Shown: one piece after another, positions 11,794 through 64,000 of the stretch
How the letters are laid out: every line of letters starts with the position of its first letter
How positions within the stretch are numbered: position 1 is the stretch's first letter
Source: Raja brachyura
Taxonomy: Eukaryota
Direction: 5' to 3'
NCBI GenBank assembly: GCA_963514005.1
Contig: OY740824.1
Location: forward strand, 5,456,001 to 5,520,000
Length of the DNA: 64,000 nucleotides
Notes under the pieces: generated by a model
Databases searched by the model: none
Told to the model about the DNA's origin: nothing
The model's input: the letters and a program-made list of their open reading frames with translations, nothing else
Made by a program: the position numbers and the translations under genes

Positions 11794-11893
11794 ATGAAAA
11801 TTACATTCACCGATTATCCGTTTTTTCTGCTGCCTCCCATAGTCCAGGCAGAAATGATTTATTACCCGATTATAGCAGTGCTTGGAATTCTTG
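11794..11893 (+). CDS. GPR139/GPR142-like orphan GPCR copy A, coding exon 1a (MKITFTDYPFFLLPPIVQAEMIYYPIIAVLGIL + G, phase 1)
   Basis: ATG at 11794 and GTAAGT donor at 11894; YYPIIAVLG is the start of TM1; G+CT joins in frame to exon 2 at 15289 to give GILANV; not in the ORF track. Confidence 0.85.
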
Positions 11894-12872
11894 GTAAGTA
11901 ATTGGATCTATGTTACGAATCGTCCATGAAAGCATTTGTTTCTACTCCATTCTTGGCAGATATGTGATGTTTAGATTTCCCTGCCCTCCAATCCAATGAA
12001 AGACGACTCCAGCCGTGTTTCTGAACTCAATATTACCTCGTTTCGGTCACTTGAAATGTACATTTTCAACCGCAAATGCTGCAGTTGTTTGAAATGATTT
12101 AGTCTCTTTCATTGATGGTCTGTTTGACTTAAACTTCCTGCAGTCAATACAATACTTTGTGTTTACTTTATTGGTTCCATTCATCGGCTAGACACTCTTC
12201 CCATCCGGAGACACCAGGTAACGTCTCGTCATTTATAGGTGTAACAAACTGCGCTTCCTCGTCGCCTCTGTGCACACATATATCGGGAACCGTTCGGTTC
12301 CAACAAATACACTATGGTTTATGAGCAAACATTATCCCGGTTGCGGTGCCGTTGGCCAGAATGTCTCCACTGCTTTACACCCAGGTGAAGGATATTATTC
12401 ATCAATATTGCAATGCCTGCCATGGGTGGATATCCACTCTGGCAGGAACAAACATAGTCTACTCTAGGGGAAGCTCAATGTTTCATTCTCTACGCATTGT
12501 TCTGTCCTTGCGCGTGAGAAGCAGTTGCCTTCTGTGGCATCTGTGACAGCAGCAACATCGCTGCCGCAGGGACTCCATTGCACCGAGTAAACAGCTGAAG
12601 GAAGACACGTCTCTGCGTGACACAGCTCACAATCTCAGGTGTGTGTGTGTGGCGGTTCCGATATCCTCACTGTGGTCACTGTGGTGAAATCATAACTGTG
12701 AATATTGTTGATACCGTGTTCAGATACCATGAAGTGATGTTAATGTTCTTGTTTGTGTCTTCCTGATCCCATGGTAAGACTATCTCTAGTGGATATCAAG
12801 TCTTCCTCCAGAACGCGCTGTCGGTTGCATTCCAGCATCGAACATTGAGCTTCTCTCTCACTTCTCTCGAGG

Positions 12873-12972
12873 ATGAAAATTATATTCACCGATTATCCGT
12901 TTTTCCTGCTGCCTCACATAGTCCAGGCAGAAATGATTTATTACCCGATTATAGCAGTGCTTGGAATTCTTG
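12873..12972 (+). CDS. GPR139/GPR142-like GPCR copy A, duplicated coding exon 1b (MKIIFTDYPFFLLPHIVQAEMIYYPIIAVLGIL)
   Basis: Second open copy of exon 1 with an intact GTAAGT donor at 12973, inside a tandem duplication of about 1.08 kb. Confidence 0.75.
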
Positions 12973-13355
12973 GTAAGTAATTGGATCTATGTTTCGAATC
13001 GTCCATGACAGCATTTGTTTCTACTCCATTCTTGGCAGATATATGATGTTTAGATGTCCCTGTCCTGCAATCCAATGAAAGACGACTCCGTGTTTCTGAT
13101 GGGCTGAACTCAATAATACCTCTTTTCGGTCACCTGAAATGTACATTTTTAACCGCAAATGCTGCAGTTGTTTGAAAGGATTTAGTGTATTTCATTAATG
13201 GTCTGTTTGACTTAAAATTCCTGCAGTCAATACAATATTTTGTGTTTACATTATTGTTTCCATTCATCGGCTAGACACTCTTCCTATCCGGTGACACCAG
13301 GTGACGTCTCGTCATTTATAGGTGTAACAATCCGCGCTTCCTCGTCGCCTCTGTG

Positions 13356-14424
13356 TAGGTATGTTACAAAACTTACCTTTAGCTGTTCTGCAGTTCTGCC
13401 GCTGGCCGTGTGCGCGACTTTGGCGCCTTTAAGGGGGGGGGGGGGGGGGGGGGGGAGGGGGGGGAGGGGTTAAAATGCTGGTTTCTCCATGCAATCCGGA
13501 GCTTTCTGTTGTCGGAGTGGGATTTATTTTTGAGATGCGTTCCGACTGCCGGTAAGTCCGTTTTTTTTTTATAAATAGCCCGACTACTTAATCACTGGAG
13601 TAAAATAAAAATTAGCTCCTAATGCCGTGAACGCCGACAACGGGGACCGATTTTACGTAGGGGACAGGTAAGTGACAGCTGTTTATTTTTACATATGAAC
13701 TTGCTTTTTTAGGGGACTCTAATCAATATTTCATGTTGCGAAACGGTGATTTAGCCCCCATATGAACTATCAGATAATTTCCTGCCGATATTGGGTTTAA
13801 ATTCACCGCAACCGCAACGTTCTAATCCATCGCGTTCCAGAAAATCCCACTCGCAAGCTGTTTAAAATGCCCATTGATTTACAGGCATTAAACACTGAAT
13901 TCCTTCAATTTGGCCTATAAAGTAATGACAATTAGATTTAAAAATCATGTTTTATTGTGAGTTATTGTGTGACTGTTAATTGGACACTTAGGCTTTAAAT
14001 TTTTTTCAATTTTTTCCTAAGAAATGGATAGATGTTTAGATCTAGTAATTGAATGTTGTAATTGGCTACAATTGGGTAACTAACTAATTATATGCTTTAA
14101 TTTCAGGTCATCCAAGTAAGATTGTTTCTTATCTTTTCAAGAATACTTCAATCTATAATATCTGAAAATGCCTTTAAGTTCTCTTAATTTTTAAGGAAGT
14201 TATGGGCTTTTGACTGTTCTCGATCACAACTTTTGTGTTAAGGCAATAGAAAAGCAATGGGAAGCAAATTGCTAATTTCCGAGTATGTAAATGGCCCTAA
14301 CTTTTTTTAATACTGAAGATATGAAAGTGAATTAGGTGTCAAATTAAACTTAATTTTATGCTTTATCTGATGGGATACATTGCAGACTTGACTTTTAAAA
14401 TCTCAAAGTTTTGTAACATTGCTA
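13356..14424. mobile_element. Non-autonomous TIR DNA transposon (hAT-like), 7-bp TSD
   Basis: Imperfect TIRs TAGgtATGTTACAAAACTT ... AAGTTTTGTAACATtgCTA; TSD CTCTGTG at 13349-13355 and 14425-14431; empty site near 12266; no transposase ORF. Confidence 0.85.
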
Positions 14425-15288
14425 CTCTGTGCACACATATATCGTGGGCCGTTCGGTTCCAACAAATACGCTCTGGTTTCTGAGCAAACATTACCCCGGT
14501 TACGGTGCCGTTGGCCAGAATGTCTCCACTGCTTTACACCCAGATGAAGGATATTATTCATCAATATTGCAATGCCTGCCATGGGTGGATATCCACTCTC
14601 AGCAGGAACAAACATAGTCTACTCAAGGGGAAGCTCAATGTTTCATTCTCCACGCATTGTTCTGTCCTTGCGCGTGAGAAGCAGTTGCCTTCTGTGGCAT
14701 CTGTGACAGCAGCAACATCGCTGCCGCAGGGACTCCATTGCACCGAGTAAACAGCTGAAGGAAGACCCGTCTCTGCGTGACACAGCTCAGAATCTCAGGT
14801 GCGTGTGTGGCGGTTCCGATATCCTGACAATGTGGCTGCAAGCAGCAATAGGAACAATGAGACATTTATACAATTTATAACTGGGGAGATGTTACCGAGA
14901 GTGACATGACAAAAGCGTTGAATGACTGATGAATTGATAAAGTGAAAATAATTGATTTTATTGATTTACTGCGGGAAGTTTCAGTCAAACAGAAAATAAT
15001 TAAAATAACTGCAATTAACTATATCGACGTAATTCGATGCAAATGACTGCATGTTTTACTGTTCGAAATATACATTTCACGTTAATGAAACGAAGAGTAA
15101 ATGAGTAAAAAACAATGAAAATCACGGCTAAATTTTCAGGAATCCATTATGAGTTATCAGATGGCATTTGATTTCACCATCTGCCACAAGTAAAACGCCG
15201 TGGCGTCTCGCTTCATTTTCAGATCACAGATTTGTAGTCTGACACTGCTTTGTTGATTTGTTGATTTCTGATTGTTCCCGTAACACAG

Positions 15289-16199
15289 CTAATGTGATAT
15301 CCATTGTCATCCTGTCCCGGGGAAAGTGCGGTCTCTCCAAATGTGTATCACGCTATCTTGTGGCCATGGCTGCGGCGGATCTGTTGGTTGCCGTAATTGA
15401 CGTTTTACTTTATCGTATCAATCAGCTATATTTCCCCACAACTTTTCTCTTCATTACTCAAGTCTGCTCCTTCCACCGGGCCCTTAACCACGCAGTCACA
15501 GACATATCCGTGTGGTTAACGCTCTCGTTCACATTTGATCGATATTTGATGATTTGTTGCCACAAGCTGAGATCCAGATTTTGCACTGAGAAAACTGCAG
15601 CCAGGGTTATTGCAACTGTGTGTCCGCTGTTATGCTTTAAAAACATCCCCTGGTACTTTGCATTTGAACCTTCTTTATCAGTACACAACGCAGCATGGGG
15701 CTGTAATGTAAAACAAGAATGCTTCATTGAACCCACATGGATATCATTCAACTGGATCCACAAATGTTTCAGCCCTCTGCTCCCAATGTTCCTGATATCG
15801 CTGCTCAACGCTCTAACAGTCGGTCACATTTTAATGGCCAGTAAAGTCCGCAAGAATCTGAGAGGCAGCAAGAATACTACGAATCAGAATGATGCCGAGC
15901 TAGAAAACAGAAGGAAGTCAATCATCTTGCTCTTTGCAATTTCCGGCAACTTTATTATGCTGTGGATGACGTATTTTATATATTTTCTCTGGACACAGAT
16001 AACAAAGCGGTTTTATTTTACCAGTCTCATTGACCCGTCGCTAATCGCGGACGAAACCAGCTACATGCTCCTGCTGCTGAGTTGCTGTACAAATACGTGT
16101 ATTTACGCGGCAACTCAGTCTAAATTCAGAGGGGAACTGAAGAGCGGGATGAAATATCTGCGGAGAATTATGTCCAAATGTGTTAATGAAGGAATCTAA
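15289..16199 (+). CDS. GPR139/GPR142-like class A orphan GPCR copy A, exon 2 (rest of TM1 to C-terminus; 336 aa when joined to exon 1)
   Basis: Acceptor ...cccgtaacacag|ct; seven-TM pattern with LVAMAAADLL (TM2), TFDRY (DRY motif), P in TM5, FIMLW (TM6) and NTCIY (NPxxY variant); uninterrupted to TAA. Confidence 0.9.
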
Positions 16200-16215
16200 C
16201 GTTGAAAATATAAGA

Positions 16216-16221
16216 AATAAA
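16216..16221 (+). promoter_or_regulatory. Candidate polyadenylation signal of GPCR copy A
   Basis: AATAAA 17 nt after the stop codon, conserved in copy B (45459-45464). Confidence 0.35.
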
Positions 16222-16470
16222 TCACAGCAGCATTGTCTCTCCCGTTTCATTTGGTCTTTCAAGCCAGCACCGCCATTCAATGTAATCATGGCTGATCATC
16301 CCCAATCAATACCTCGTTACTGCCTTCTTCCCATATCCCCTGACTCCGCTAAGAGCCCTATTTTTTAAGGGCCCTATCTAGCTCTCTCTTGAAAGCATCC
16401 AGAGAACCTGCCTCCACCGCCCTCGAAGGCAGAGAATTCCACAGACTCACCACTCTCTGTGAGAAAAAGT

Positions 16471-19400
16471 GATTGATTAAGGTTTATTTAAATAGGGACA
16501 GATACAAAAACATAGATACACTTGAAACAGTCATCTGATGTACGCATCATAGCGTTTTTAGCCAAGCCAATTCCTGTCCCTAGTAGGGCTTTTGGTTAAA
16601 AATGATAATACAGATTAACATTATTAAAAATAGGAAAATGGAAATGGAAATTAGATAAAAAATGGAAAAGAGAAAAAGACATACAGAGAGAGCACAGTGT
16701 AAAAACTAAATATGAGAACACGATTGTTGTTGAATTAACCACAATTTTGTGTTCCTTTTGGATGTGACATATGCAGGGATACATTTCAAGTGGTCTAGCA
16801 GTGAGTGCCATAATTTTGTCCCTTTTCCTGAAAAGGCATTTTGAGCAAAAGATGTTCTGCAGAAGGGGATACTACAATTGCCTTTTGACGCTGCCCGGGT
16901 GGTGGATCTGGTACCACTTTGCAGTCTTGTTATTGTTTTGCACAGCAGCTGGAGAGCAGCGCCATTAAGGCACCTGAAGACCAATTTAACTAAATTTAAA
17001 GAAATTAAGTTGGCAAAACGTAGGATCTTATATTTGCTTAGAATTTGACAGTGATGATACCTTATTCTTTATTTGTCCCGGACTTTCAAGGCTCGGTTAT
17101 AGAGAAAACTCCATGGCCTTAATTGATGACTGGTGAGCCTGGGACCATGTGGTTAAGCCATCAGATATATGTGCGAGAATCATAGAATTCATGAAAAGAA
17201 AAGCACAGTTAAAAGTCAAACAGGTTTTTATATCATAAAACAGCCCAAGTTTGCCTTAATGGTTTTACACATTTTCTTAATATGACTTTTAAAGTTCAAC
17301 TGATTGTCTATAATTATTCCCAGATACTTTACTTCAGGTACTTGTTCAATGAGCTCACCATTGATTTTTATATTGAGGAGGTGTGTTTGGGGTAGTTTTT
17401 TGATGGAGAAGCAGAAATAGTTTGTCTTTTTTAGTGTTTAAAGTTAAACAAGATGAGGGCAGCCAAGATGATATTTTGTCTAAGTTGGCATTCAGTTTCT
17501 CAGCCACAAAAGTACAGGTTTCACCAGATGCATATACAACTGTGTCATCTGCACACACTTGTAGACATATATCTGGGCATACATCAGGCAAATCATTGAT
17601 GTAGAGGCTGAAGAGTATAGGTCCCAAGACAGTGCCCTGAGGGATCCCTGTTTCAATTTTTAGAAAATTGGATCTCACACTATTAATTGTAACACATTGT
17701 TCACGGCCATTTAAGTATGACTCAAACCAGGACAATGACTGTTTTGAAAAATTGAACTTAGTTAGTTTTGAAATTAAGGTGTCATGATTTACTGTATCAA
17801 ACGCCTTTTTTAGATCTAAAAATACTCCACCAACCACATTTCCTTTATCAAGTGAATGTTTGATATTTTCGGTTAAAAAACAAGTGGCAGATTCTGCAGA
17901 ATAGTTGCGTCTGAATCCGAATTGCAGGGGATGCAAATAATGGTTTGTCTCAAGGTGGTGCATCAGTTGTTCTGAGACAATCTTCTCCAGGACTTTAGAG
18001 AAAACGGGAAGAAGACTAATGGGTCTATAGTTAGAGTTAATTTTAGTATCTCCAGACTTAAAGAGTGGTATTACTTGAGCAGTATTCCACCCATCTGGGA
18101 ATTGCCCTGATTTAATGGAGATATTAATAAGATCGGTGAGAGGCTGGATAAGAATGCTACTATATTTCATAAGAAAAGCTGTGTCTAGATTATAAATATC
18201 TTTTGAGTAAGTGGTGTTTAGGTCATGTATAGCTTTTAGGTCAGCTGTCTGACCAACCTCCCTGAGCTGAAATGAGCTATCTTGATCGTCGGGCATGTCT
18301 ATTGCTGTTAGGGCAGTATCATTCCTGCAGGAGAAACCTGAGGCAAAGTTTTTAACAGATTCTATGAAGAAATTATTGAACTCGTTTGATACTTGAGTGC
18401 TATCAGTGATTATGTTTTCTCGAATTTTAAGTTTGTATTGGCTTTGGGTGGCGTTAACCTTTGGATTTAATAGGCTATTTAATTGCTTCCAGATACTTTT
18501 GCCATTTCCTTTTGCCTCTGATAGAGCGTGGGTGTAATAATTTGATTTGGACGTTCTGAGTTGTTTAACCACTTGATTACGCAAGACTTGAAATAGTTTC
18601 AGATCAATGTCACTACGAGTTTTGATAAAAAGTTTTCAGGGCATAGTCCCTCCTTTTCATTAGTTTTCGAATGTCAACTTTCATCCATGGTAGCTGGAAT
18701 TTTCTTTGGGATTTTTTTCGCTTTTTAATAAATTTATCAACAATACATCCAATGGTAGACGTTAGCTGATTACAACAGCCGTTTACTTGGTCAAGTAGTT
18801 GGAGCTCATCCCAGTTAACACCCTTTAATTCGTTCTCAAATTGAGTCATTGTTTTACGAGGGATCTCAAGTTTTTAAAAAAATCTGGTTTTGATTTATAA
18901 ACCTTGTCAGTCGTTTCTTTGTGAGTTTTCTTGCTATCAATGTCAAGTTATGATCAGATAGGCCAGTGACTAGATTATACGTTTTTATGATTCTATCAGG
19001 TTTGTTCGTGAAAATTAAATCTATTAGTGTTTGAGTGTTTCTGGTAATACGTGTGGGGGCTTCGATCTTCTGACTGAAGTTATGTTTCGATGTGAGATCC
19101 TTTAGTTTTTTTCTGCAGTTTTTGTCTAACCAATTTGTATTAAAGTCTCCGAAGACAAGTACCTCACTGTTGTGCTTATAGTTCTTCAACAGCGCATCTA
19201 AGAGTTCGCATAGCGCCGCAGTGCACGCAGAGGGAGGGTTGTGTACCACCACGATGTTAAATTGCATGTTTTGTGACAATGTTAAATTAATACATAGACA
19301 TTCAGTAGATATATCAGCAGTCGGGGAAATTTCATTTGCATTGAGTGAGTCCTTAATGTATATCAACACACCCCCTCCCCTTCCCACAGTTCGGTCCCTA

Positions 19401-20485
19401 CTAAAGCATTTATATCCCTGAACATTGATTATGCTGGCTGCGATTTTATCATGCAGCCACGTTTCACTAATACATAGAAAATCAATATTGGACTCGTACA
19501 ACAATATTCTAATCTCATCACACTTGGGAGCTAGGCTTCGGATGTTTAAATGGCCTCCCAAAATACCTTTAGGTTTTACCGCAGGATCCCAAACCACTTT
19601 GGCATGATTAACAGTTTGAAAGAATAGAGTCTGCCTCTGATTCGTCCGTGCTTGTGTTTGGAGTGTTTTTACTTGAGCGGGGACAGCTGATCCTCGCCAG
19701 CGAACGTTGTCAGCTGAGCGGTCCAAGGCACTGGTTAGGCCTACTTTGTTTCCAATCTCCGTCCCGGCCTCCGTCACCTGCACTTCCAGGGCCTTCTGGT
19801 GGTTTCTCTGCCTCTCCAACCCGAGGGGTCCGACGACCGGCGTTGGCCCCAGCCAGCTCCTGGGCAGCGTCGTACCCGGTCCCGAGGCTTGCAGCTGGGC
19901 AGCGGCGTCGCCGGCGCTCGGTACCAGCCCCGGGTCACTCGGCGAGGCGACCACACCTCCCGAAGCTGCCGCCGGGAGGTGTGAGTGATCACCGAGGCTC
20001 TTGGTGTGGCCGACAAGCAGCTGATGCAGCCGCCGACTTCCCTGGCGCTGTTGGGGGCTGCTGCTGCTGCTGCTCCGGCCGGTCGTGCTCGAAGCCATTG
20101 GCGAGCTCGGCGGGCCGGCGGCCGTCCAGTGAAATGTTTTTGAGGAAGCTGAGGGCGGCCTGTCTCCGCCGGGAGTCGGTGCGCCTCCTGACATGTTGGT
20201 GCTGCTGCTGCTGCTGCTGTTGATGATGATGGTAGCGGTGATGCTCCTTCGTGCAGCCGTGCTTGAGGCTACAGAAGCGAAGCGCACCGCCGGCACACGT
20301 AGCGGCCGCCATTGTTCTCTCATCTTGTTCCATCATCTTGTTCCCTCAAACGCCGCATCATTTCAAATTGTTTTTTCCTTTTCCAGGATCGTGAAGAATC
20401 AGAAATATATCAACATAATAAATCTGTTCACTCATTTTGCTGCTGGCAGAATTTTCTCTATCCGCAGCTTTTAGAGCACATTCAC
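16471..20485 (-). mobile_element. Chimeric retro-insertion: CABLES2 5' UTR/exon 1 fused to an L2/Crack-group LINE ORF2 with 3' tail
   Basis: 4-bp duplication AAGT at 16467-16470 and 20486-20489 versus the empty site in unit B; minus-strand 3' end AATAAAcctt(AATC)2; APE motifs (GGHLNIRSL, ISETWL, VFGDFN, SDH) and RT motifs (NYRPISLL, FLDLKKAFDTV, GIPQGTVLGP, CADD) with several frameshifts. Confidence 0.85.
19806..20485 (-). pseudogene. CABLES2: Retroposed CABLES2 5' UTR + exon 1 fragment (ATG at 20312; one frameshift near 20000)
   Basis: MAAATC...RRRTDSRRRQAALSFLKNISLDGRRP matches the CABLES N-terminal signature (human CABLES2 RRRGDSRRRQAALFFLNNISLDGRPP, from recall); WLGPTPVVGPLGLERQR matches the exon 1 end (PTQVPTGLGLDGQRQR); CpG-rich with a His/Gln tract. 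Confidence 0.8.
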
Positions 20486-23400
20486 AAGTCTTTCCTCGTC
20501 TCCGTCCTAAATGGCTTACCCCTTATTCTTAAACTGTGGCCCCAGGTTCTGGACTCCCCCAACATCGGGAACGTGTTTCCTGCCTCTAGTGTGTCCAAGC
20601 CCTTAACAATCTTATATGTTTCAATGAGATATCCTCTCATCATTCTAAACTCCAGAGTGTACAAACCCATCTGCTCCATTCTCTCAGCATATGACAGTCC
20701 CGCCATCCCGGGGATTAACCTTGTCAACCTACGCTGCACTCCCTCAATAGCAAGAATGTCCTTCCTCAAATTAAGGGACCAAAACTGCACACAATACTCC
20801 AGGGGTGGTCACACTAGGGCTCTGTACAATTGCAGAGGGACCTCTTTGCTCATATATTCGATTCCTCTTGTTATGAAGGCCATTCGCTTTCTACACTGCC
20901 TGCTGTACCTGCATGCTTACTTTCACAGACTGATGTACAAGGACACCCAGATCCCGTTGTACTTGCCCTTTTCCCAATTTGACGCCATTAAGATAGTAAT
21001 CTGATATCCTGTTTTTGCTACCAAAGTCGATAACCTCACATTTATCCGCACTAAACTTCATCTGCCATGCATCTGCCCACTGCCCCAACCTGTCCAAGTC
21101 ACCCTGCATTCTCATAGCATCCTCCTCACAGTTCCCACTGCCACACAGTTCTGTGTCATCTGCAAATTTGCTAATTTTACTTTGAATATATTTGATATAT
21201 TCTCGCGTATATCTGACCTATCTCAGTGCAACATCCAAACGATCCTGAAGACTTCTACATTTTCCGTTAGTGAACAAGTCGGCAGATTTAGACTGGGTTA
21301 GATACTGAGCGAGCTGATGGTCACGTGCTAAATCGTTATCATGCATGCACACAACTTAATTAAAAACCTTGTTTGTCGGGGTTCGTGGTCATAGAACCAT
21401 AGAAACATAGAAAATACGTGCAGGAGGAGGCCATTCGGCCCTTCGATCCAGCACCGCCATTCGTTGTGATCATGGCTGATCGTCCGCTATCAATAACACG
21501 TGCCTGCCTTCTCCCCATATCCCTTCACTCCACTAGCCCCTAGAGCTCTATCCAACTCTCTCTTAAATCCATCCAGTGATTTGGCCTCCACTGCCCTCCG
21601 TGGCAGGGAAGTCCATAAATTCACAACTCTCTGGGTAAAAACGTTTTTTCTCGGCTCAGTCTTAAATGACCTCCCCTTTATTCTAAGACTGTGGCCCCTG
21701 GTTCTGCACTCACCCACCATTGGGAACATGTTTCCTGCATCTAGCTTGTCCAGTCCTTTTATAATTTTATAAGATCCTTTTATAAGTTTCTATAAGATCC
21801 CTCCTCATCCTTCTAAACTCCAGTGAATACAAGCCTAGTCTTTACAATCCTTCCTCATATGACAGTTCCGCCATCCCAGGGATCAATCTCGCGAACATTC
21901 GCTGCACTGCCTCAATCACAAGGATGTCCTTCCTCAAATTAGGAGACCAAAACTGTACACAATACTCCAGATGTGGTCTCATCAGAGCCCTATACAACTG
22001 CAGAAGAACCTCTTTACTCCTGTACAGAAATCCTCTTGTTATGAAGGCCAACATTCCATTAGCTGTCTTCACTGCCTGCTGTTAGATAATAATCTGCCCC
22101 CTTCTTTTAGCCTCCAAAGTGGATAACCTCACATGTATCTATATTGCACTGCATCTGCCACGCATCTACCGACTCATTCAACCTGTCCAGATCCCCCTGC
22201 AATCTCCTAACGTCCTCTTCACAGTTCACACTGCCACCCAGCTTTGTGTCATCCGCAAACTTGCCAGTGTTGCTCCTAATTCCCTCTTCCAAATCATTAA
22301 TATATATGGTAAGCAGTTGCGGCCCCAACACCGAGCCTTGCGACACTCCACTCGCCACTGCCTGTCATTCTGAAAAGGACCCGTTCACTCCTAATCTTTG
22401 CTTCCGGTCTGCAAACCAATTTTCCATCCATGTCAGCACCCTACCCACAATACCATGTGCTCTAATTTTAGTCACCAGTCTCCCGTGCGGGACCTTATCA
22501 AAGGCTTTCTAAAGTCTAGATACAGTGCATCCCCTGGCACCCCTTCATCCATTTTACGTGTCACATCCTCAAAAAATTCCAGAAGATTAGTCAAGCATGA
22601 TTTTCCGCTATCCAAATGGCACATTATTACCTCGTTAATAAATGATTCCATCATCTTTCCCACCACGGAACTCAGGCTAACTGGCCTGTAATTCCCCGTT
22701 TTCTTTCTCGCTCCTTTTTTGAAAAGTGGGATAACATTAGCTATTCTCCAATCGGCAGGAACTGATCCTCAATCAATTGAACATTGGATAATGATCACCA
22801 ATGCGTCCATTATTTCGAGAGCCACCTCCCTGAGGACCCTGGGATGCAGACCATCAGGCCCAGGGGATTTATCATCCTTCAGTCCCATTAGCCTACCCTA
22901 TACTATTTCTCGCCTAATGAAAATGTCTTTCAGTTCTTCTACCCCCTGACATTTTCTGTCCTCCAGTACATCTGGGAGATTGTTTGTGTTCTACTTAGTG
23001 AAGACGGATCAGAAGTACCTATTCAACACTTCTGCCATTTCCTTGTTGCCCACAATTATTTCACCCGTGTCTGCCTTCAAGGGACCCACATTTGACTTTG
23101 CTATTCTTTTTCCCTTACCATATCTAAACAAGCTTTTACTGTGCTTTTTTATATTCCCAGCCAGCTTCCCCTTGTACTCCAAGCGGTTCCTTTACCTCGA
23201 GTTCTCTTATCATATCTGATTCATTGGACAACACTAAATCCAGAATTGCGTTTTCTCTGGTCGGCTCCATTACAAGCTGTTCTAAGTATCCATCTCGGAG
23301 GCATTCTACAAACTCTCTTTCTTGGGGTCCTGAAGCAACCCGATTTTCCCAGTCTACCTACATATTGAAATGCCCCATCACCACAGTGGCATTACCTTTG

Positions 23401-24812: not shown

Positions 24813-24825
24813 TGGGGGCTCGTCC
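24813..24825 (+). promoter_or_regulatory. Primer-binding site, tRNA-Pro type
   Basis: TGGGGGCTCGTCC directly after the 5' LTR; complementary to the tRNA-Pro 3' end. Confidence 0.8.
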
Positions 24826-42944: not shown

Positions 42945-42997
42945 AAATGATTAATATAACTGCAATTAACTATATCGATGTAATTCAATGCAAATAA

Positions 42998-53100: not shown

Positions 53101-54300
53101 AATTTGACACCCCCCCCCCCCCCTTATTCAGTTCAAAACCACCCGTGTAGCAGTGGCAAACCAGCCTACCAGAATGCTGGTCCCCCATCTGTTAAGATGC
53201 AATCCGTCCCTTTTGTACAGATCCCCCTTACTCCAAAACAGATCCCAGTGATCTAAGAATCTAAATCCCTACCCCCTGCACCAGTTTCTCAGCCATACAT
53301 TCAGGTCCCGTATCTCCCTGTTCCTGCTCTCGCCAGCACGAGGAACTAGAAGCAAACCGGAGATTACAATCCTGGAGGTCCTGCTTTTCAGCATTTTTCC
53401 GAGCTCTCTAAAGTCACGCTGCAGAATATTCCTCCCCTTCTTTCCGACATCGTTTGTGCCGACATGTACGACCACCTCCGGCTGTTCACCTTCGCCGTTG
53501 AGGATTTTCTGCACTCTGTCCGTGACATTCTGGATCCTGGCACCAGGAAGGCAGCAAACTATCCTCGAATCCCGTCTGTTCCTGCAGAAACCCCTGTCCG
53601 TACCTCTTAGAATCGAGTCTCCAACTACAATGCCGTTGCCTGATGTTGGCCTCTTTCGTTTTGGCTCAACAGCCCTTTTTGACTCGCTAGCCAGTGTGAT
53701 AACGTCTTCTGTCCCGACAGCTTCTAAGTGGGTGAACCTGTTGACGAGAGGTACGACGCCCGGAGACCTTTGCATTCCAAGTTTCCCTCGCTTTCGTACC
53801 GTCACCCACTTTTTTCCCTCCCAGTACCTTAGGTGTAACAATCTCACTGTAGGACCTGTCGAGGAACGACTCCGTTTCTCGGACGAACTTGAGGTCGTCC
53901 ACTTGCTTCTCCAATTCCCCAACACGGCCCTTCAGAGCAGTACCTGGATGCATTTCTCACATTTGTGGCAGCTAGAGGCACCAGCAGTGTCCTTGACCTC
54001 CCACATACTGCAAGCATCACACTGAATCAGCTTGCTTGACATCTCTTTCTTTCGCCTCTCCCTCAACAGCATTTTGCGTAGCCTCCTCTCCTCAGCCTCC
54101 TCGCCGAAGACCCTGGACCCGAAGACTCGCACTTTTCTCACAGGGCACTTTCCTCACAAGCCTGCTCCCTCACTGCCGCTCCCCAAGAGCTGTCTTGCTT
54201 ATACTGACTGATAACTTGACTAATTTACCAATTTACAAACCAAATTCCTCAGTTTTCACCTGTTTTCCCCCTCTGACTCACTTCTAACTCTCCTGCCACT
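50129..54300 (-). mobile_element. Degenerate near-full-length CR1 LINE, unit C copy (no LTR insertion)
   Basis: ORF1 IQCDACSMWEV, GDSILRG, HVGTND; ORF2 GKSCLTNLLEFF, KFADDTKLGG, LYRALVRPHLEYC. Confidence 0.88.
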
Positions 54301-57300
54301 CGGGCAAGAGCCAATCAGTGGTCCTGGAAAATAGATGGTTGGACATTTGATTTAGAAAGCAAAATATCTTTCCTCTCAACCTGCATCATCAAATCTCCAA
54401 TAAATAAACTGCTCAGAAGAACGGGTAATTAGCAAGTACCTCATAGGCTGTGATGCAGTTACCAATAATACAGATCACAATGCCACATTGAACGACACAT
54501 TAACAATTTGCTACTGTTGACCACCGCTTGATATTTATAGTGGAAGTGACTTAATACTGCCATTCTTGTCATTGATAAAGGTGGTGGCTGGTGGATTTGT
54601 CCAGGGTTTTATTAGTTTGTGAGAGGAGCGCGGAAAGGCTTCGTGTCATATGTTTTAAATTAAATACGCATTATCAGTGATTTCATGGCAGACGCCGACA
54701 CCGTGGGTAGAATATACTTCGGTATTATACGACTCTATGGAGCAGATACTGTAAAGTCAAATCCACACCTAGAGCCAGATTACCGCTTTTGAACCGTCCC
54801 ATCATGCACCACCAAGTTCTATGCAGTACCGTTGTAAAATAGTACACGATTCTGTGGACTGTCTGAACACGCACGTTTAATAGAGAAGCACCGAGGTCGA
54901 TCGAACTGTGGAACCTCGCCACTCTGTGGGCTCCATCAATGCAACACAGTCTGGAAATCAGCGTTCAGATGGCCAGGAGAGATGGGAAGAATTTCCTCAG
55001 TTGCAGGGATAATAGTAATAAATATTCGCCCACAAACATGCTGAGACTCAGACATTGGGTATATTCTGTCCTTGATGCTCAGGGAAGTTCACGTGGCTTC
55101 GTGCAGGACAATGATGCAGAAGTAATGAATTCGATTGATGCATCTGTCCTGCTGTTTATTAGGTTATTACTTAAAACAGAGAATGAAGGCCATGCAACAA
55201 GCTCTCCGTCGTATCTTGGTGAATATTCCCCCATCTTTACAGATGTGGTAAAATAGTTTAATAAATCAATAGTTTGACAGTCCTTTATTGCCACGTGTAC
55301 ACTGAGATACATTGAAATTTGACGTTACCATACAAACATACAAACAAAAGTAACAACATACAAAGTTACATATAAACGTAAACCTAAACAGCCGCCATAG
55401 CGCCGTGCGAGAATCCTAAGACACACAGCACAGACGGAGAGCCACAGCCGTCAGTCCAATGTCCGGGCCACACACACGCTCCACCGTGATGTGACCAGAG
55501 TTGCACCGACCGTTTGCCGCTGTCTTTGTCAGAAAGCCGTCCGCACTCGCACCATTCAGCAGGCCGCTCACGTGTTATGACGCCCCCGCAACACCGAGAC
55601 CACGCACTCACGGCAATCCCTCCAAGTCCCCACCAGCGCAGGCAGCATCAGCAGCATGGGGAAAGTAGGATAACATAACTCTGACGAAAGGGTGACCGAT
55701 GGCCGGCGTGGACCTGTTCGACCAAAGTGCCCGTATCATGGAGTCACAGATTCATAGAGGGATACAGCATGGAAATAGGGCGTTCGTCCCAACCTTCCCC
55801 CCACGACCAACATGTCCCAGCTACACAAGTCCCATCTGCACGCGTTTGGCCCATATCCCACTAAACCATACCTCTATATGTCTGTCCAACTGTTTCTAAA
55901 AGGGTGGGATAGTTACTGCATCTGCAACCTCCTCCGGGAGCTTGTTCCATGCACCCACCACCCTTTGTGTGAAAAGGTTCCCCCTCATATTGATATGAAA
56001 TCGTTTCCCCTTCGCCTTAACCCCATGTCCTCTGGACCTCGATTCACCTACTCTGGTCCTACCAAATCTATTCCCCTCGTGATTGCATACATCTCCATAA
56101 GATCACCCCGCATCCGCCTACACTCCAAGGAATAGAGCCCCAGCCAGCTCAACATCTCCCTATGCCTCAGACCATATGGTCCTGGTACCATTCTCGTTAA
56201 TCGTCTCCTACAACTTACCCTTTCCAGATTGAAAACACATTCCCATTAACATGGTGCCCATCATGATATCCATGATGTATATTTCATTCACATCAAATGA
56301 ATAGGTATGATTTTCTTCTGCACAAATTCCCAGCTAAGCCTAGATTTCGCAGCAACTCTTCAATCGAGGCATTCAGCACTCACAGAGATCACTGTCCTCA
56401 CTGCCCATTCATCTCCTCTGTCGCAGCTCTTTGCACTCGCATTCCTGGTAGGAGCGCCCGTTGTTCAGCCACGCTGGTCATAGCCAGAAAGGAGACATGT
56501 GTGTGAAGTTGGAAGCAATGACTTCAATGTTGAATGCCGCATGTTTGTAAGGCTGGAGGAGTGGAGTCCAGGGTTTTATGTCAGGAATAATATCTCAGCC
56601 TGGATCCGCTCCGTCTGTCAAAGGTCATGTCCACACATCCGACATCACCTCGCTTTTATTTTCCCGCTTTCGGCTGTCGTCGGTGGCGGGTGCCGGACCT
56701 GTCCGTGGGCTGCATGGTACTGGACCCCCCCACCCGATGCCGATGGCGGCTGCTGGGCCTGGCGGTAGGCTGCACGGCCCTGGAAAGCGTTTCAGGTAAG
56801 CAGATACGATCGCTGTCCTGATGTTTAGGCTTCTAGCTTCCAGCTGCACTCTTCGTGACCCTTACTGCCCCGTTTGTTTTTGTTGCCCTCTTGTTTCCCG
56901 TTCCGACTTCTTTTCGTTGGCGCCAATTCATATACAATTTGGCGCCAAATCCTCTTGCTTGGTGCCGTTCCAATTTGTGTCGCCAAATACAAACACATTT
57001 TAAACGTTTTATTTTAACTTGGCAGCACTCGATCTTCGCTTCTCTGTTCTTTGATCCTCGTCGCCAATTGTTGTGTATTTGGTGCTAGAAACGGACTTTA
57101 AATAACACTGGGACACGGGAGGTAACTGACAAGCTTCTATATTCTGAACGCCACCACGAGTCTCTCCTGCGCATACGTACCATTGCGCAAGACATTAAAT
57201 ATATTAATTATCTTTCAAACATAACCTTTCTTTAAATTCAGGACCCCAGACACTGAATTTGGCTGAATCAGCCCCAGCCCAGTCACTCAAGGTTCAAGAT

Positions 57301-60300
57301 TCAATTCAATTGTCACATGGACCAAATTAAGGTACAGTTAAAGTTGAGATGCCAAACAGCCATACTAAGTGAGAAAAGCAACAAGACACACTGTCACATA
57401 AAATAAATGTAACTTAAACATCTACCACAGCGGAATCCACATTACTCACTGTGATGGAAGGCAATAAAGTTCAGTCATCTTCCTCGTTTGAACACCCGTG
57501 GTCGGGGCTAATCCCTCCGCACATGCCGTTGCCGTCGGTCCGTGGTGACAATTTCACACAAAAAGTGATACGTATGTTGAACAAGCTATCCGAGGAGATG
57601 GCATAGGCGAGTACCATTACAAAAGTTAACATTAATTTGGGTAGATCGATGGTAGGAAAGTCTCAGAGAGAGATGGGCTAAACTGAATCAAGCAGGACGA
57701 GGTTAAGTGAGAGCATTGGCTGGCATGGGAACGCTGGGCTGAAGGGCTTTCTTCGTGCCGTAAAACTGCGGGACAGCTAATCTACCAACCAGCGGATATT
57801 TGAGATGTTTGACGGAACAGGAACACCTGGGAGAAACTCAACTTCTCACAAAGATAATGTGCAAACTCCACAAGGGCAGCAGCCGTGGTCAGTGCTGAAC
57901 CGGTTCAGTGTTGCCGTGATCCAGCAGTTCTACGAGCTGTGTCGCTGTTGTTGAGAGCAAAGGTCAGTTTGCAGTCGGCGCTGATGGTTGCGGCTTCGAG
58001 TGCAAACAGACACTCGGGCCCATAAGTGGCAGTGGACACCGCTGAACAGCACCGAGGAAGCAATGTGAGCAGATATTCTGGATCAGATAGCACACCATCT
58101 GTCATCTCAGATGGAGGAGAAGTATCCCAATGTATACAGCATCAAAAACATGAAGTTACTTTCACTAAAGACGGGAAAATATAATCTGCTCTGCCATTCC
58201 CGACACCGCCCTCTTCCGACCGCTTTGCCCCCAGCGAGGTGATGCGAGTGTGAAGAGAGTAAACATAGGACCCATGAAAGGCTCGGCGTTTTGCCGGCAC
58301 TAACAAAGTTGAATGATGCAGCATCTCTGTTACTTTGTGAAACTTCATATCTCTCTGTTACTCATCTATTTCTGATTGTTGATTTTATCAAATATGGTCT
58401 TTAGTCAGATTGCGATCGCAATTTCCTAATTTGTTGGAGCTAACTTAATAAAGCACAGCTGATCGTTTCACCCCAAACAGCTGCATCGCATATGTACATT
58501 GTTATTGCTCTACTAGAAATCCCCTTGCTGTAGACAGCGTGTAGCTTACACATTCTCGAAATCATTTCCTCAGAATGCCGATGATTTTCAGTCGACTTTC
58601 TCATCAACAGACCACAGTCTGTTTGAATTGGCAAAACACTTCTTCCTCAATAACCATCAGCACGGGGGTCCTCAAGCTGTGTGCGCAGCCCCCATACTCT
58701 ATCCACTCTCTCCTCACGACAGTTTAGCTTGACACAGTGTGAACTCCATCTTCCGATGAAGTTCTCCGACGATACTACTGTTATTGGACGAATTATAGAT
58801 GATGATGAGTATTGAGGTGAGATCGATCGACTGATCAAGTAGTGCCAGAACAACAACCTGGTTCTCAATGTCAATAAAACCAATTAACTGATCGATGTCT
58901 GGAAGAGGAAGGACGAGGTCCCTCAAACCTGTCTATATCGAGATGGTTGAGAGAGTCCACAGTATCAAATCCCTTGGCGTGCATATGTCTGAAGATCTTT
59001 CCTGGACCCAGCACTTCCAATGGAAGTAAGCATTCAGGTAGAGCAGGCGGTGAAGAAAGTAATTGACATGTTGGCCTTCATAACAAGAGAATTTGTGTAT
59101 AAGAGCAAAGGGGTCATTCTGCAGTTTTACCGGGCCCTAGTGAGACCACACCTGGAGTATTGTATGCAGTTTTGGTCTCCCAATTTGAGGAAGCACATTC
59201 TTGCTACTGAGGGAGGGCAGCGTGTGTTCACCAGGTTAATTCCCGGGATGGCGGGAATGTCATATGTTGATAGAGTGGAGCGGCTTGGCTTCTATACTTG
59301 GAGTTTGGAAGGATGAGAGGGTATCTTATTGAAACATATAAGTTTCTGTAGGGTTTGGACAAGCTAGACACAGGAAACATGTTCCCGATGTTTGGGGAGT
59401 CCAGAACCAGGGGCTACAGTATAAAAGTAAGGGGCAGTCCACTTAGAAGGGCGATGAGGAGAAACGATTTCACACAGAGGGTTGTGAGTCTGGAATTCTC
59501 TGCCTCAGAGGGTGTTGCAGGCTGGTCCTCTGGATACTTTCAAGAGAGAGCTAGACTGAGCTCTTAAAGAGAGCGGAGTCAAGGGATATGGAGAGAAGAC
59601 AGGAACTGGGTATTGATTATGGAAGATCAGCCATGATCACATTGAATGGCGGTGCGAGCTCGAGTGGCCGAATGGTCAACTCCTGCACCTATTGTCTATT
59701 GTCTATTATCAATTGATGCAATTATAACGAAAGCTCATCAACGGCTCTACTTCCTGAGACGTTTGCGGAGATTCGGTATGTCAGGGAGAACGATCTTGCA
59801 ACTGCACAGTCGGGATCGATTTAACTGGTTGCGAAATGGCCTGGTTCGGCCCAGAATGTCCTGGAGCGAAGAAGACTGCAAAAAGTTGTGGACAATGACC
59901 AGTGCATCACAGTTGCTGATCTGCCCACCATCGAATGGATTTACAGGAGTCGCTGCCACACATTCCTTTCACCGCGGCCACCGGGGAAAAGATCTATGAG
60001 CTTGAAAACGCTCACATCAGGAACAGTCTATCCCATACACCCAGTGGGGTATTAAACTCCACAACCTCCATTAACCTCTGAAATACCTTGACTATTAATG
60101 CTATTGTTGCATTATCATTGTTGTTTGTTTTTAATTAATACGCTTGTGTGCATGTGTGTGTGTGTGTGTGGGGGGGGGGGGGGGTGGTATGTGTGAGTAT
60201 GTGTATGCAAACACACACACTCGTTTATTAATTGTTTATAGGAGCCTATGTTAACATATTCTGGTGTGCTGCTGCAAGTGAGGATTCAATTCTTCTATCT

Positions 60301-63300
60301 GTTGCAAATGACAATTTGTCTCTTGGCACTTGACTCTTAAGAACACGCTTCACTGACTTCTGGCAGGGAATGAATGTAACTAAAATGAGGGAGCAATGAA
60401 GCATGTAGGTACCGAAACTCTGTGATACGGAACAATATCTGATGATCAGAAGGTATATCCATCTATAGTGGGTGGCATACGTCTCGCCCTCACTTGACAC
60501 TATAGATGGGGAATATAAAACAGTATATTTCGGGACCAGGTATATGCCGAGTCTGATTCCTACATAGACAATGTTAATGTAGTCAGGGACACCGCTGGAA
60601 CTTCTGGAATCTACAATTGCAGAAATTGTGTCCGGGTGAGGTTCCACGGTTATCACTCATCTTGCTCAGTTTTGTCAAAATATACTCAAAACATTCCAAA
60701 GATATGTGTGCAGCTGCATTAAAATAAAACATTAAAAGATAAATTGTCTATCCCTCTGGATCCCACAAATCTCTTCAAGGTGACTCTCCACATCTCGTAG
60801 ATAACCTGACAATCTTCGCCATCACCGTCCACAGATTCCGTCATGAATAGTCTCCATCATACACACATCTCGTCAACTGAGATAATGGAAAGGTCAAGTG
60901 AAACATGGTAGTTCAGAGGGATATGTGAGCCATTATTGAATGTCGGAGTAGACAATGGGCGGAATGGCCGAATGCTGGTTCTATCACTTATGAACATCAA
61001 TTCTGAACTCATGGAAAGACAATAACGAAGGCCTAATGCAAGGGAAGAAGCTGTTCTCGGGTCTAGTGGAGTGCGCTTTCAAGCTTCTGTGCCTTTTCCC
61101 AGACGAGTGCATGCAGTAGAACGAACGACCGGTCTGCGACAAGTATATGTGTATTGGCTGCTTTTCCGAACAGTGTGAAATGTGGATGGAATCAATGATG
61201 TTTGTGTGATGAACTCAGATACATTCTCAACTCTGCAATTTCAGGGTGTTCCAAGCAGCGTTGCCACCCGACGATATGCTGTCCAAATGCATTCTTAAGA
61301 GTCATTGCAAAGAAGCCGTCCGTCTCCTCAGGAAGTAAAGTCGGCAGTGTACCCTCTTGGCTGTTGCATTAATGTGGGTGGTCGCATCTTGGCCGCATCT
61401 TGGAGACTACGCCATCACTAACATCTGGAACTACTTGCCGGTGCTGGGTGTCAGTGTAATTAGAGGATAGCAATTAAGGCACGTTACCTTTGCTTTCCCT
61501 TGTATCAGGGCGAAGGCCGTCTTCTTCAAGTAGGTTATATTTATAATCGCGTGGAGAGTAAAAATGCATTTAATGAATAGATCCCATCCCGTGCAAGCCT
61601 TGCCGAAAGCCACCGACATTCATGCAGTTGTCTCGGGACTTCATCCTTGTCCGCAATACCCTCGCGGGACCCTTAATAATTCTGCGGAGATCGTAAGTAG
61701 ACATCTTGTACCGCTCAGGATCATTTGACCTGAACGTTGCAGACATGAACGTCACGTGGGAGTCGAGCTCGCGGTTTATCCGTAGATTATGTTATGGAAC
61801 CAAGTATCGTCTTTTTTGGTGCACATCCCCAATACACTTGCTGACGCGGTCTGTGACAACTGAGGCTTATTCGTCCAGGTTAGCCGCAAAGTCCTGACAT
61901 ATGGACAAGTCCATCGACTCATAACTGTCTGTTATATATACCTTGCATACCAATAGAGTGCTCGTACTCCGAAGCAAACCCATGTCCCCCTCCTCACCTA
62001 TCCCCGCGTCGTCATCCGTACCGGGAGATGCATCACACTCGCAGTGTCCCAGCAACTCTAAAAATACATGTACGTAAGACATGTTGGCAGGTGTGGGAGA
62101 GTTGGGCCGAAGGCCCTATTGTTACAATGTATGACTCTATGATTCTATGACTCTATAATTCTATGACTACATTTGCTGTCATCCACTCCCAATATTGTAA
62201 TTTACTGAACTCGCTCTACTGTCCCGGCTTTACATGTAGCATTACTGTTCTGATACCCTCTTGTGAGTCGAAACTCATATTCATAAGATGCTAGTTCTAT
62301 CACTGCGATTCTGGCGAAACTTTGAAAGTTTGTTGCAGCTTGTTGAATTTCGTTTGAGCTTCGGCAGAGAAGAACCATTTTACAGAATAAGAGAAGCGAG
62401 GCCGCACATGTTGAACGTGTTACAGTAGAGCATTCGAATTCCGACATTTAAATCAGAATTAGAGGGAAATTACGTAAATATATAATCTCAAGTTTCAGTA
62501 CTTCCACTTAAATTAAAACATCATTAGTGGTTATATATCGAGTGGTGAAATCATAACTGTGAATGTTGTTGATACCATGTTCAGATACCATGAAGTGATG
62601 TTAATGTTCTTGGTTGTGTCTTCCTGATCCCATGGGAAGACTATCTCTAGTAGATATCAAGCCTTCCTCCAGAACGCGCTGTCGGTTCCATTCCAGCATC
62701 GAACATTGAGCTTCTCTTTCACTTCTCTCCAGGATGAAAATTATATTCACCGATTATCCGTTTTTTCTGCTGCCTCCCATAGTCCAGGCAGAAATGATTT
62801 ATTACCCGATTATAGCAGTGCTTGGAATTCTTGGTAAGTAATTGGATCTATGTTACGAATCGTCCATGAAAGCATTTGTTTCTACTCCATTATTGGCAGA
62901 TATGTGATGTTTAGATTTCCCTGTCCACCAATCCAATGAAAGACGACTCCAGCTGTGCTTCTGAAGGGCTGAACTCAATAATACCTCGTTTCGGTCACCT
63001 GAAATGCACATTTTCAACCGCAAATGCTGCAGTTATTTGAAATGATTTAGTGTATTTCATTGGTGGTCTGTTTGACTTAATCTTCCTGCAGTCAATACAA
63101 TATTTTGTGTTTAGTTTATTGTTTCCATTCGTCGGCTAGACACTCTTCCTATGCGGTGACACCAGGTACGTCTCGTCATTTATAGGTGTAACAAACCGCG
63201 CTTCCTCGTCGCCTCTGTGTACACATATGTCATGAGCCGTCCGGTTCCAACAAATATACTCCGGTTTGTGAGCAAACATTATCCCGGTTGCGGTGCCGTT

Positions 63301-64000
63301 GGCCGGAATATCTCCATATCGTGTTCCGATATCGTGACAATGTGTCTGTAAGCTGCAATAGGAACAATGAGACATTTATACAATTTATAACTGGCGAGAC
63401 GTTAACGAGAATGATAGGACAAAAGCGTTGAATGACTGATGAATTGATAAAGTGAAAATAATTGATTTTATAGATTTACTGCGGGAAGTTTCAGTAAAAC
63501 AGAAAATGATTAAAATAACTGCAATTAACTGTATCGATGTAATTCGATGCAAATAACAGAATTTTTACTGTTCGAAATGTACAAACGAAGCGTAAATTAG
63601 TTAAAGACTTACAAAATCACGGCTAAATTTTCAGGCAGCCATTATGAGTTATCAGATGATTTCACCATCTGCCACAGGTAAAACGCCGTGGCGTCGCTTC
63701 ATTTTCAGATCACAGATTTGTAGTCTGACACTGCACCTGCCGCCTACACCATGTTTATCCGACCTGATAAAATACTATTCCGTGTAAATTCATTGGAAAA
63801 TTGTCATTATTTTCATTCACGCACATATTGCGATATTGTCAACACTGGCGACAGTCCTAACAGTGGAAAGACATTTCTTTCTCGTCGCACAACCTTTAAA
63901 ACGTTTTGTGCTGTGTCCGCTCGCCCTGTCATGAATGTCTATGCTCAACTCTAATCTTCATGTGAAATCGCGTGTTACGTGGGGCACCCTGTAACCTGCA
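50218..64000 (+). repeat. Tandem segmental duplication, unit C (truncated by window end)
   Basis: Collinear with A and B; the last bases (gtaacctgca) match 44478-44487, about 45 nt upstream of the exon 2 acceptor in unit B. Confidence 0.9.
62734..62833 (+). CDS. GPR139/GPR142-like GPCR copy C, coding exon 1 (MKIIFTDYPFFLLPPIVQAEMIYYPIIAVLGIL); exon 2 expected just beyond the window
   Basis: ATG at 62734 and GTAAGT donor at 62834; the downstream intron is collinear with copy B up to the window end. Confidence 0.85.

What the first reader, a model, noticed from the sequence alone, without database searches (positions are those of the whole stretch)
11794..64000. Tandem array of intact orphan GPR139/142-like GPCRs: a candidate expanded receptor repertoire
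Seen: at least three paralogs, one per duplication unit of about 21-29 kb. All visible exons are open with canonical phase-1 splice sites, while surrounding TEs are full of stops and indels. Non-canonical NTCIY (for NPxxY) and FIMLWMT (for CWxP) motifs. Knowledge: mammalian GPR139 and GPR142 are single-copy aromatic amino acid sensors. Inference: a lineage-specific birth-and-death expansion resembling chemosensory or immune receptor clusters, with unknown ligands and tissue.
Basis: partly seen in the sequence, partly recalled or inferred. Interest (0 to 1): 0.72.

Follow-up and report, generated by a model that had tools for sequence, protein, structure and literature searches.

The report
Thousand-gene skate receptor family, likely smell
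These receptor genes belong to a family of over 1,300 copies in a skate-like fish, related to but separate from GPR139, whose variable binding sides and smell-receptor-like promoters suggest they likely form an overlooked set of chemical sensors, though where they are active is untested.

Summary
The array is real, but only part of it is intact. The window holds two complete two-exon class A GPCR genes plus exon 1 of a third. The third gene's exon 2, just outside the window, has lost the TM7 tyrosine. The local array has 13 copies in a ~66-kb three-gene repeat: 6 intact, 1 in-frame deletion, 6 broken. A TM3 motif occurs 1,339 times genome-wide, control 0; 33 of 40 and at least 26 of 40 sampled exons 2 are open. 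These are not GPR139/142 orthologs: both exist separately, each found once. The family is one cartilaginous-fish clade, chimaera included, sister to a conserved amphibian/sturgeon gene. The intracellular half is constrained (omega 0.24-0.30); the extracellular half is near 0.9, not above 1. Divergent paralogs share TATA, homeodomain and degenerate O/E (EBF) promoter sites like mouse odorant-receptor genes; the pre-set held-out test is modest (3 of 23 vs 1.4%). Best reading: a nasal chemoreceptor repertoire (~55%). No expression data were obtained. The scan noted this family before on other DNA; my literature searches found no description of it.

The parts
11689..11698 (+). Perfect O/E (EBF)-type palindrome TCCC-NN-GGGA, 105 bp before the ATG of copy 1; a TATA-like TAGATA follows at 11712-11717
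   Evidence: same form as the Ebf site of the mouse OMP promoter probe; binding not tested
11794..11893 (+). Copy 1 (type A) coding exon 1a: 33 codons plus 1 base, phase-1 GTAAGT donor
   Evidence: matches the N-terminus of the RefSeq model P0001
12873..12972 (+). Duplicated exon 1b of copy 1, open, with a one-mismatch O/E site (12767-12776); also present in two other type-A copies
15289..16199 (+). Copy 1 exon 2, 302 codons, TM1-TM7 and helix 8, intact
41359..41368 (+). Perfect O/E-type site of copy 2; differs from copy 1 only at a free spacer position
41465..41564 (+). Copy 2 (type B) coding exon 1
44532..45442 (+). Copy 2 exon 2, intact, 92% identical in protein to copy 1; differences cluster in ECL1, ECL2 and ECL3
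62628..62637 (+). Perfect O/E-type site of copy 3
62734..62833 (+). Copy 3 (type C) coding exon 1; its exon 2 lies just beyond the window (L008) and lacks three codons including the TM7 tyrosine; all 5 type-C copies of the array are damaged
1..64000 (.). Almost one whole ~66.2-kb higher-order repeat (A-B-C) of a 13-copy array; same-type copies 94-99.6% alike over 4-10 kb (the most recent 98.5-99.6%), different types about 90-92%

Best explanation
The window is one 66-kb repeat of a tandem array within a family of at least 1,339 class A GPCR loci, distinct from GPR139 and GPR142, that likely serves as a chemoreceptor repertoire predicted to be expressed in nasal sensory neurons and to detect small water-borne molecules through a variable outer pocket and a conserved G-protein face. 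SHOWN: gene structure, copy number, local pseudogenes, phylogenetic position, constraint on the intracellular half and relaxed constraint on the extracellular half, and shared promoter motifs. INFERRED: (1) A single jawed-vertebrate gene, still present as one conserved protein cluster per species in amphibians and in sturgeon, multiplied in cartilaginous fishes by tandem and segmental duplication with some gene conversion. (2) A TATA box with a degenerate O/E (EBF) site about 21-25 bp upstream, often next to a homeodomain site, would be read by Ebf and a Lhx2-type factor in olfactory neurons. (3) Each neuron would express one or a few members. (4) Ligands are probably amino acids, amines or short peptides, given kinship to the Trp/Phe receptor GPR139 and an acidic residue at 3x37 in 31 of 37 members. 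Steps 2-4 are untested.
For: Size: 1,339 exact TM3-motif matches and 988 TM7-motif matches, reversed controls 0. In the range both lists cover, 85 of 95 TM7 hits pair with a TM3 hit (hand count), so up to about 1,500 loci. Intact exon 2 in 33 of 40 evenly spaced loci from C1-C9 and in at least 26 of 40 one-per-cluster loci. Selection in 22 intact subfamily copies: intracellular omega 0.24-0.30 (2dlnL 84.5 against omega=1), extracellular 0.88-0.91. Across 37 members the mean top-residue frequency is 0.51 outside vs 0.73 inside, p=1e-13. GPR139 pocket positions 3x33, 5x43 and 7x38 vary across the family while W6x48 is kept in 36 of 37. Promoters: TCCCNNGGGA with <=1 mismatch at -140..-70 in 9 of 22 non-redundant discovery promoters vs 49 of 2050 control windows, and in 3 of 23 held-out promoters vs 31 of 2205, p=0.004. 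TATA in 17 of 22 and 14 of 23 vs 11-13%; YTAATTR in 7 of 22 and 12 of 23 vs 8%. O/E-like site 20-25 bp before TATA (<=3 mismatches) in 11 of 17 and 11 of 16 vs 9-11%. A homeodomain+O/E pair with the 1-base gap of the mouse Sfaktiria enhancer occurs in 2 of 22 and 4 of 23 vs 0.2-0.4%. Mouse OR promoters are enriched for O/E, homeodomain and TATA sites (PMC3247239). In the local subfamily the O/E site varies at its free positions and is broken in two frameshifted copies and in the spare exon 1b. Two single-copy relatives show no TATA and no O/E site within one mismatch in the 300 bp before their candidate starts (n=2).
Against: No expression or ligand data were obtained. Most O/E matches are degenerate, and the only pre-set held-out test is modest (3 of 23; <=2 mismatches 8 of 23 vs 18.5%, p=0.048). 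The homeodomain, TATA-anchored, composite and Fox tests were designed after seeing both promoter sets. The window's own promoters have TAGATA and TAATGT rather than canonical TATA and YTAATTR. EBF and Fox factors also act in B cells and other neurons (recalled). Extracellular omega does not exceed 1 (LRT 0.74; NG86 0.68, CI 0.47-1.06), so relaxation is as good an account as diversifying selection. The catshark nose is reported as all TRPC2/Go microvillous neurons with a V2R-dominated repertoire (PMC10116579). Its top-50 olfactory-library genes contain no GPCR (PMC11979771; none of the known V2Rs either). Some near-identical copies (99.6%) and about 20 of 128 hits on small contigs may be assembly duplicates.
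Confidence: 0.55

Rival explanations
1. A chemosensory family outside the nose: taste buds, solitary chemosensory cells of skin or gill, gut sensory cells, or other Ebf/LIM-homeodomain neurons.
For: The same pocket variability and constraint pattern. GPR142 and GPR139 sense aromatic amino acids outside the nose (PMC5430874 abstract for GPR139; GPR142 recalled). The shark nose already has V2Rs.
Against: The O/E + homeodomain + TATA combination is the documented signature of odorant-receptor promoters. A thousand-gene repertoire fits one-receptor-per-neuron coding better than taste cells (inference).
Confidence: 0.17
2. An immune receptor family on leukocytes or B cells (like FPR or chemokine-type clusters), recognising microbial metabolites or peptides.
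For: Rapid birth and death with gene conversion in ECL2. EBF-type site plus a Fox-like TGTTTRY motif in 8 of 22 and 12 of 23 promoters vs 13%; EBF1 and FOXO1 are B-cell factors (recalled).
Against: Homeodomain sites and their spacing next to the O/E site resemble olfactory elements. Fox sites are also reported in OR enhancers (PMC5318403). No clear omega above 1, as is common at pathogen-facing surfaces.
Confidence: 0.12
3. Mostly passive expansion: a small two-exon gene caught in unstable, transposon-rich segmental duplications, with few functional members and many assembly duplicates.
For: 7 of 13 local copies are damaged, same-type copies reach 99.6% identity, and the surroundings are transposon-rich. 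Extracellular omega is indistinguishable from 1.
Against: Intracellular omega 0.24-0.30 among recent paralogs. 65-82% open exons 2 in two samples. Promoter motifs are kept across unalignable promoters. The expansion is shared by sharks, rays and chimaera. Four to five copies of each type cannot come from two haplotypes.
Confidence: 0.08
4. An internal signalling family (neuropeptide or hormone receptors, or sperm/reproductive-tract receptors).
For: The closest folds are peptide receptors (NTSR1, GPR139, opioid), and the sister lineages are conserved genes.
Against: Endogenous ligands do not usually need over a thousand receptors with divergent pockets (inference).
Confidence: 0.08

Closest known systems
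GPR139 and GPR142 (class A orphans activated by L-Trp/L-Phe; PDB 7VUG, 9M42)
   Same: Best solved-structure sequence hit (E 2e-6). Same phase-1 intron just before the TM1 asparagine in this genome's own GPR139 and GPR142-like genes. Same loss of the NPxxY proline; W6x48 kept; copy 1 keeps H5x43.
   Different: Only 21-22% identical. Both genes exist separately, each found once, on C21 and C23, and form their own clade (support 100). F3x33 and N7x38 are not kept, and pocket residues vary across the family.
Unnamed conserved 'GPR139-like' genes of amphibians and sturgeon (e.g. XP_069092602.1), within the three orphan sets that Rinne et al. 2019 tentatively called GPR210A/B (PMC6504862)
   Same: Sister group of the family (SH-aLRT 98.5, FastTree 0.992). 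It shares the TVAFTFDR, CCxKLK and DPEM..RRxSI motifs. This genome's best hits to it are family members at 34-36%. The genome also has single orthologs of the two other related lineages.
   Different: One protein cluster per species there against over a thousand loci here. Function is unknown for both. Which GPR210 label fits which lineage was not verified.
Vertebrate olfactory chemoreceptor families (OR, TAAR, V1R/ORA, V2R/OlfC)
   Same: Large clustered repertoire with pseudogenes, conserved cytoplasmic face, variable outer half, and O/E + homeodomain + TATA promoter sites.
   Different: A separate, peptide-receptor-like GPCR lineage: Pfam gives only 7tm_1. It has an intron within the coding region. 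Cartilaginous fishes have only 6-13 OR, 3-5 TAAR, 2-4 ORA and 8-43 V2R genes (PMC10116579). Olfactory expression is shown for those families, not for this one.

Membership tests
Class A (rhodopsin-like) GPCR | Seven TM helices, 7tm_1 profile, DRY-type motif, TM3-ECL2 cysteines | tested here: met
   Pfam 7tm_1 61 and 59 bits; AlphaFold model of the 85%-identical relative P0001 has seven helices plus H8, pLDDT 87.5; Foldseek hits are class A receptors; FDR[YF] and both cysteines conserved
GPR139 / GPR142 orthologs | Orthology by tree and high identity to human GPR139 | tested here: not met
   22% identity; separate GPR139 (531 bits to the human protein) and GPR142-like loci exist; distinct clades
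GPR139 / GPR142 orthologs | Trp/Phe-site residues F3x33, H5x43, W6x48, N7x38 | tested here: not met
   copy 1 has H, H, W, Y; three of the four positions vary across 37 members
GPR139/142-related group in the wide sense | Shared phase-1 intron before the TM1 asparagine and nearest-relative status | tested here: met
   same acceptor position and phase in the family, GPR139, GPR142-like, L171 and L172; trees (rooted on unnamed database proteins)
OR / TAAR / V1R / V2R / T2R families | Family-specific profile or homology | tested here: not met
   only 7tm_1 matched in Pfam; no olfactory receptor among the PDB sequence hits or the listed fold hits
Olfactory chemoreceptor repertoire (functional class) | Large clustered birth-and-death family | tested here: met
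Olfactory chemoreceptor repertoire (functional class) | Diversified ligand-facing half, conserved signalling half | tested here: met
   positive selection itself not shown
Olfactory chemoreceptor repertoire (functional class) | O/E and homeodomain promoter sites | tested here: inconclusive
   enriched in discovery and held-out sets but degenerate, and partly post hoc; factor binding untested
Olfactory chemoreceptor repertoire (functional class) | Sparse, one-per-neuron expression in olfactory epithelium | not tested
Olfactory chemoreceptor repertoire (functional class) | Activation by external odorants | not testable with these tools
   needs cell assays

The most novel reading that the evidence does not exclude
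Sharks, rays and chimaeras smell mainly with a fifth, independently evolved receptor family of about a thousand genes, born from one GPR139-related orphan receptor and placed under the same Ebf/homeodomain gene-choice grammar as mammalian odorant receptors, which would overturn the view that their olfactory repertoire is a few dozen genes.
Probability: 0.45. Interest if true: 0.92.

Novelty: new variant of a known kind. Interest (0 to 1): 0.72.

Why it matters
Published counts give cartilaginous fishes a few dozen olfactory receptor genes despite their large noses, and this has been explained as a trade of discrimination for sensitivity (PMC10116579). A family of over a thousand loci, hidden under the automatic label 'probable GPR139', makes that puzzle directly testable with one in situ or single-cell experiment. 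If olfactory, it is a new vertebrate chemoreceptor family and a second case of convergence on Ebf/homeodomain receptor choice. If not, it is still one of the largest vertebrate GPCR expansions and needs a function. The conserved amphibian sister gene offers a tractable route to the ancestral ligand.

Tried and rejected
Orthology to GPR139/142: rejected. A skate-only origin: rejected. Pure haplotype artefact: rejected for the bulk, since there are 4-5 copies per type with distinct lesions; not excluded for single 99.6% pairs. Positive selection: not shown; extracellular omega is not above 1; no site models were available. Support for the window's subfamily including shark members was unstable (FastTree 1.0, IQ-TREE 12-14), so I do not claim it. 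Most discovery 5/6-mers did not replicate in the held-out promoters. Exon 1 of GPR139 and of the L172 lineage was not found in 30-40 kb upstream, so those promoter controls are missing. Literature searches without a description of the expansion: GPR139 + cartilaginous fish, 'G-protein coupled receptor 139' + shark, GPR139 with shark/skate/chondrichthy/elasmobranch, 2 of 5 terms, 40 of 5,289 listed, gpr139 + shark, 'receptor 139' + cartilaginous, GPR139/GPR142/evolution, elasmobranch olfactory GPCR expansion, 30 of 59 listed, GPR210 (89). The library lacks most subscription papers. The supplement of PMC11979771 (catshark tissue expression) could not be read and may bear on expression. No complex prediction was run.
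Full report
Observation. The window comes from a 2.7-Gb vertebrate assembly (G000:C48:5456001-5520000). Its closest database protein is from the skate Rhinoraja at 85% identity, so the organism is likely a skate. Four 100-nt coding first exons with phase-1 GTAAGT donors lie at 11794, 12873, 41465 and 62734. Two open second exons of 302 codons lie at 15289-16199 and 44532-45442. The model agrees with the RefSeq protein P0001 and both copies match Pfam 7tm_1. The third gene's exon 2 begins just past the window and lacks three codons, including the TM7 tyrosine (L008).

Local array. Thirteen copies of this subfamily lie at C48:5.265-5.538 Mb in three types. Types A, B and C differ by 39-56 of about 905 bases; copies of one type differ by 2-17 among the nine compared. 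The recent part is an A-B-C repeat of about 66.2 kb (positions), so the window is nearly one repeat. Six copies are open, one has the in-frame deletion, two have stops and four have frameshifts; all five type-C copies are damaged. The most recent same-type flanks are 98.5-99.6% alike, the two older C copies 94%. Two haplotypes cannot give four to five copies per type, but single pairs could be assembly duplicates; read depth was not available. One A copy carries a run of six B-type bases in ECL2, which looks like gene conversion.

Family size. A protein search gave 2,629 candidates, of which the 128 scored all exceeded 320 bits. A TM3 pattern has 1,339 exact matches and a TM7 pattern 988, both with 0 for the reversed control. 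In the range both lists cover, 85 of 95 TM7 hits pair with one of 100 TM3 hits (hand count), which puts the total between 1,339 and roughly 1,500 loci, pseudogenes and possible duplicates included. Of 40 evenly spaced loci taken from the 100 listed (C1-C9 only), 33 have an open exon 2; one of these, L088, was missed by a regex and restored. Of 40 further loci chosen one per cluster, 26 are open, 9 truncated and 5 unresolved. That suggests roughly 900-1,200 open exons 2. Database members carry the label 'probable GPR139' (a few carry other automatic names) in many sharks and rays, and one comes from the chimaera Callorhinchus.

Identity. The genome has one true GPR139 (531 bits to the human protein) and one GPR142-like gene. 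They are 21-22% identical to copy 1. All share a phase-1 intron before the TM1 asparagine with the family and with two further relatives found once each. In the final tree (78 sequences, 298 columns; three unnamed outgroups dropped; rooted on an unnamed protein), the 55 family members form one clade (SH-aLRT 95.2). Its sister is a conserved gene of amphibians and sturgeon (98.5), and GPR139+GPR142 lie outside. Family monophyly was weaker in earlier trees (0.864 and 58.9). The sister gene appears as one protein cluster per species in 20 amphibian clusters plus sturgeon among 25 hits. Rinne et al. noted three orphan sets beside GPR139/142 in fishes and coelacanth and named two GPR210A/B (PMC6504862, passages); the passages seen mention no cartilaginous fish, and I did not match their labels to my lineages.

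Selection. Topology came from an AlphaFold model of P0001. In 22 intact subfamily exons (of 28 loci examined), codon models give omega 0.24-0.30 for 157 intracellular-half codons (2dlnL 84.5 against 1) and 0.88-0.91 for 124 extracellular-half codons (2dlnL 0.74). Pairwise estimates are 0.22 and 0.68 (CI 0.47-1.06); ECL2 gives 1.04 and the TM6-ECL3-TM7 top 1.22, both with intervals spanning 1. So the genes are constrained as proteins and their outer half is free to vary; positive selection is not shown. Of the four GPR139 residues needed for Trp/Phe activation (PMC5430874, abstract), only W6x48 is family-wide, and an aspartate at 3x37 is present in 31 of 37 members.

Promoters. Earlier scan notes suggested an odorant-receptor-like promoter, and I tested this. 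Three of the window's four first exons have a perfect TCCCNNGGGA about 105 bp upstream, the form of the mouse OMP Ebf probe (PMC5608512, supplementary file 7). Among 53 promoters reduced to 22 non-redundant ones, 9 have a site within one mismatch at -140..-70, against 49 of 2050 control windows (window chosen after viewing). With the rule fixed, 35 new promoters reduced to 23 gave 3 of 23 against 31 of 2205 (p=0.004), and 8 of 23 against 18.5% at two mismatches (p=0.048). Tests designed after viewing both sets show TATA boxes (17 of 22, 14 of 23), YTAATTR homeodomain sites (7 of 22, 12 of 23 vs 8%), an O/E-like site 20-25 bp before the TATA box, a homeodomain+O/E pair spaced like the Sfaktiria enhancer (2 of 22, 4 of 23 vs 0.2-0.4%) and a Fox-like motif. 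Mouse OR promoters are enriched for O/E, homeodomain and TATA sites (PMC3247239, passages; PMC5318403, passages), and composite sites tolerate degenerate Ebf halves (PMC5608512, passages). Two single-copy relatives lack a TATA box and a one-mismatch O/E site in 300 bp upstream, a weak control.

Mechanism and rivals. The best reading is a chemoreceptor repertoire in nasal neurons (0.55): size, clustering, turnover, asymmetric constraint and promoter grammar all point that way. Expression, cell type and ligands are untested. Against it stand the degenerate motifs, the post hoc tests, and reports that the catshark nose is a V2R-dominated microvillous organ (PMC10116579, abstract and first half of Results) with no GPCR among its top 50 genes (PMC11979771, section 11; supplement unreadable). 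Rivals are extranasal chemosensing (0.17), immune sensing (0.12), passive expansion (0.08) and internal signalling (0.08).

Novelty. The genes are in public annotations under a misleading automatic name, but eight searches of the held library found no description of the expansion (listings seen, plus passages of PMC12294341). This scan noted the same family in other genomes and elsewhere in this one; those notes are not independent evidence. Verdict: a new variant of a known kind, interest 0.72; 0.92 if olfactory expression is shown.

Noticed in passing
window 45908-48559 (-): An 882-aa open LINE frame with endonuclease and reverse-transcriptase domains right behind copy 2: a young, nearly intact insertion.
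   Followed up: partly
window 24982-29491 (+): Degraded LTR (Gypsy-like) element with integrase zinc-binding and SH3 domains inside the A-B spacer.
   Followed up: partly
window 11603-13357: Internal duplication of promoter plus exon 1 in type-A copies (3 of 4); exon 1a has the perfect O/E site, exon 1b a mismatched O/E site but a TAATG element, so alternative first exons are possible.
   Followed up: partly
L156 and L160 (C48:5.24 and 5.58 Mb): C2H2 zinc-finger-like open frames flank the receptor array on both sides (seen by eye, not scanned).
   Followed up: no
L171 (C24:30.97 Mb) and L172 (C5:119.21 Mb): Two further conserved GPR139-related orphan genes, each found once, orthologous to fish/coelacanth/amphibian/turtle genes (L171) and to an anchovy gene (L172); no mammalian hit was among those listed.
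   Followed up: partly
L002 (C48:5537504-5538430): Type-A copy with a type-B patch in ECL2, suggesting gene conversion shuffles the outer loop.
   Followed up: partly
window 7061-7467: Short-period GC-rich tandem repeat, expanded in this unit relative to the paralogous units.
   Followed up: no
family promoters (L052-L153): Fox-like TGTTTRY motif enriched 70-250 bp upstream of the ATG in both promoter sets.
   Followed up: partly
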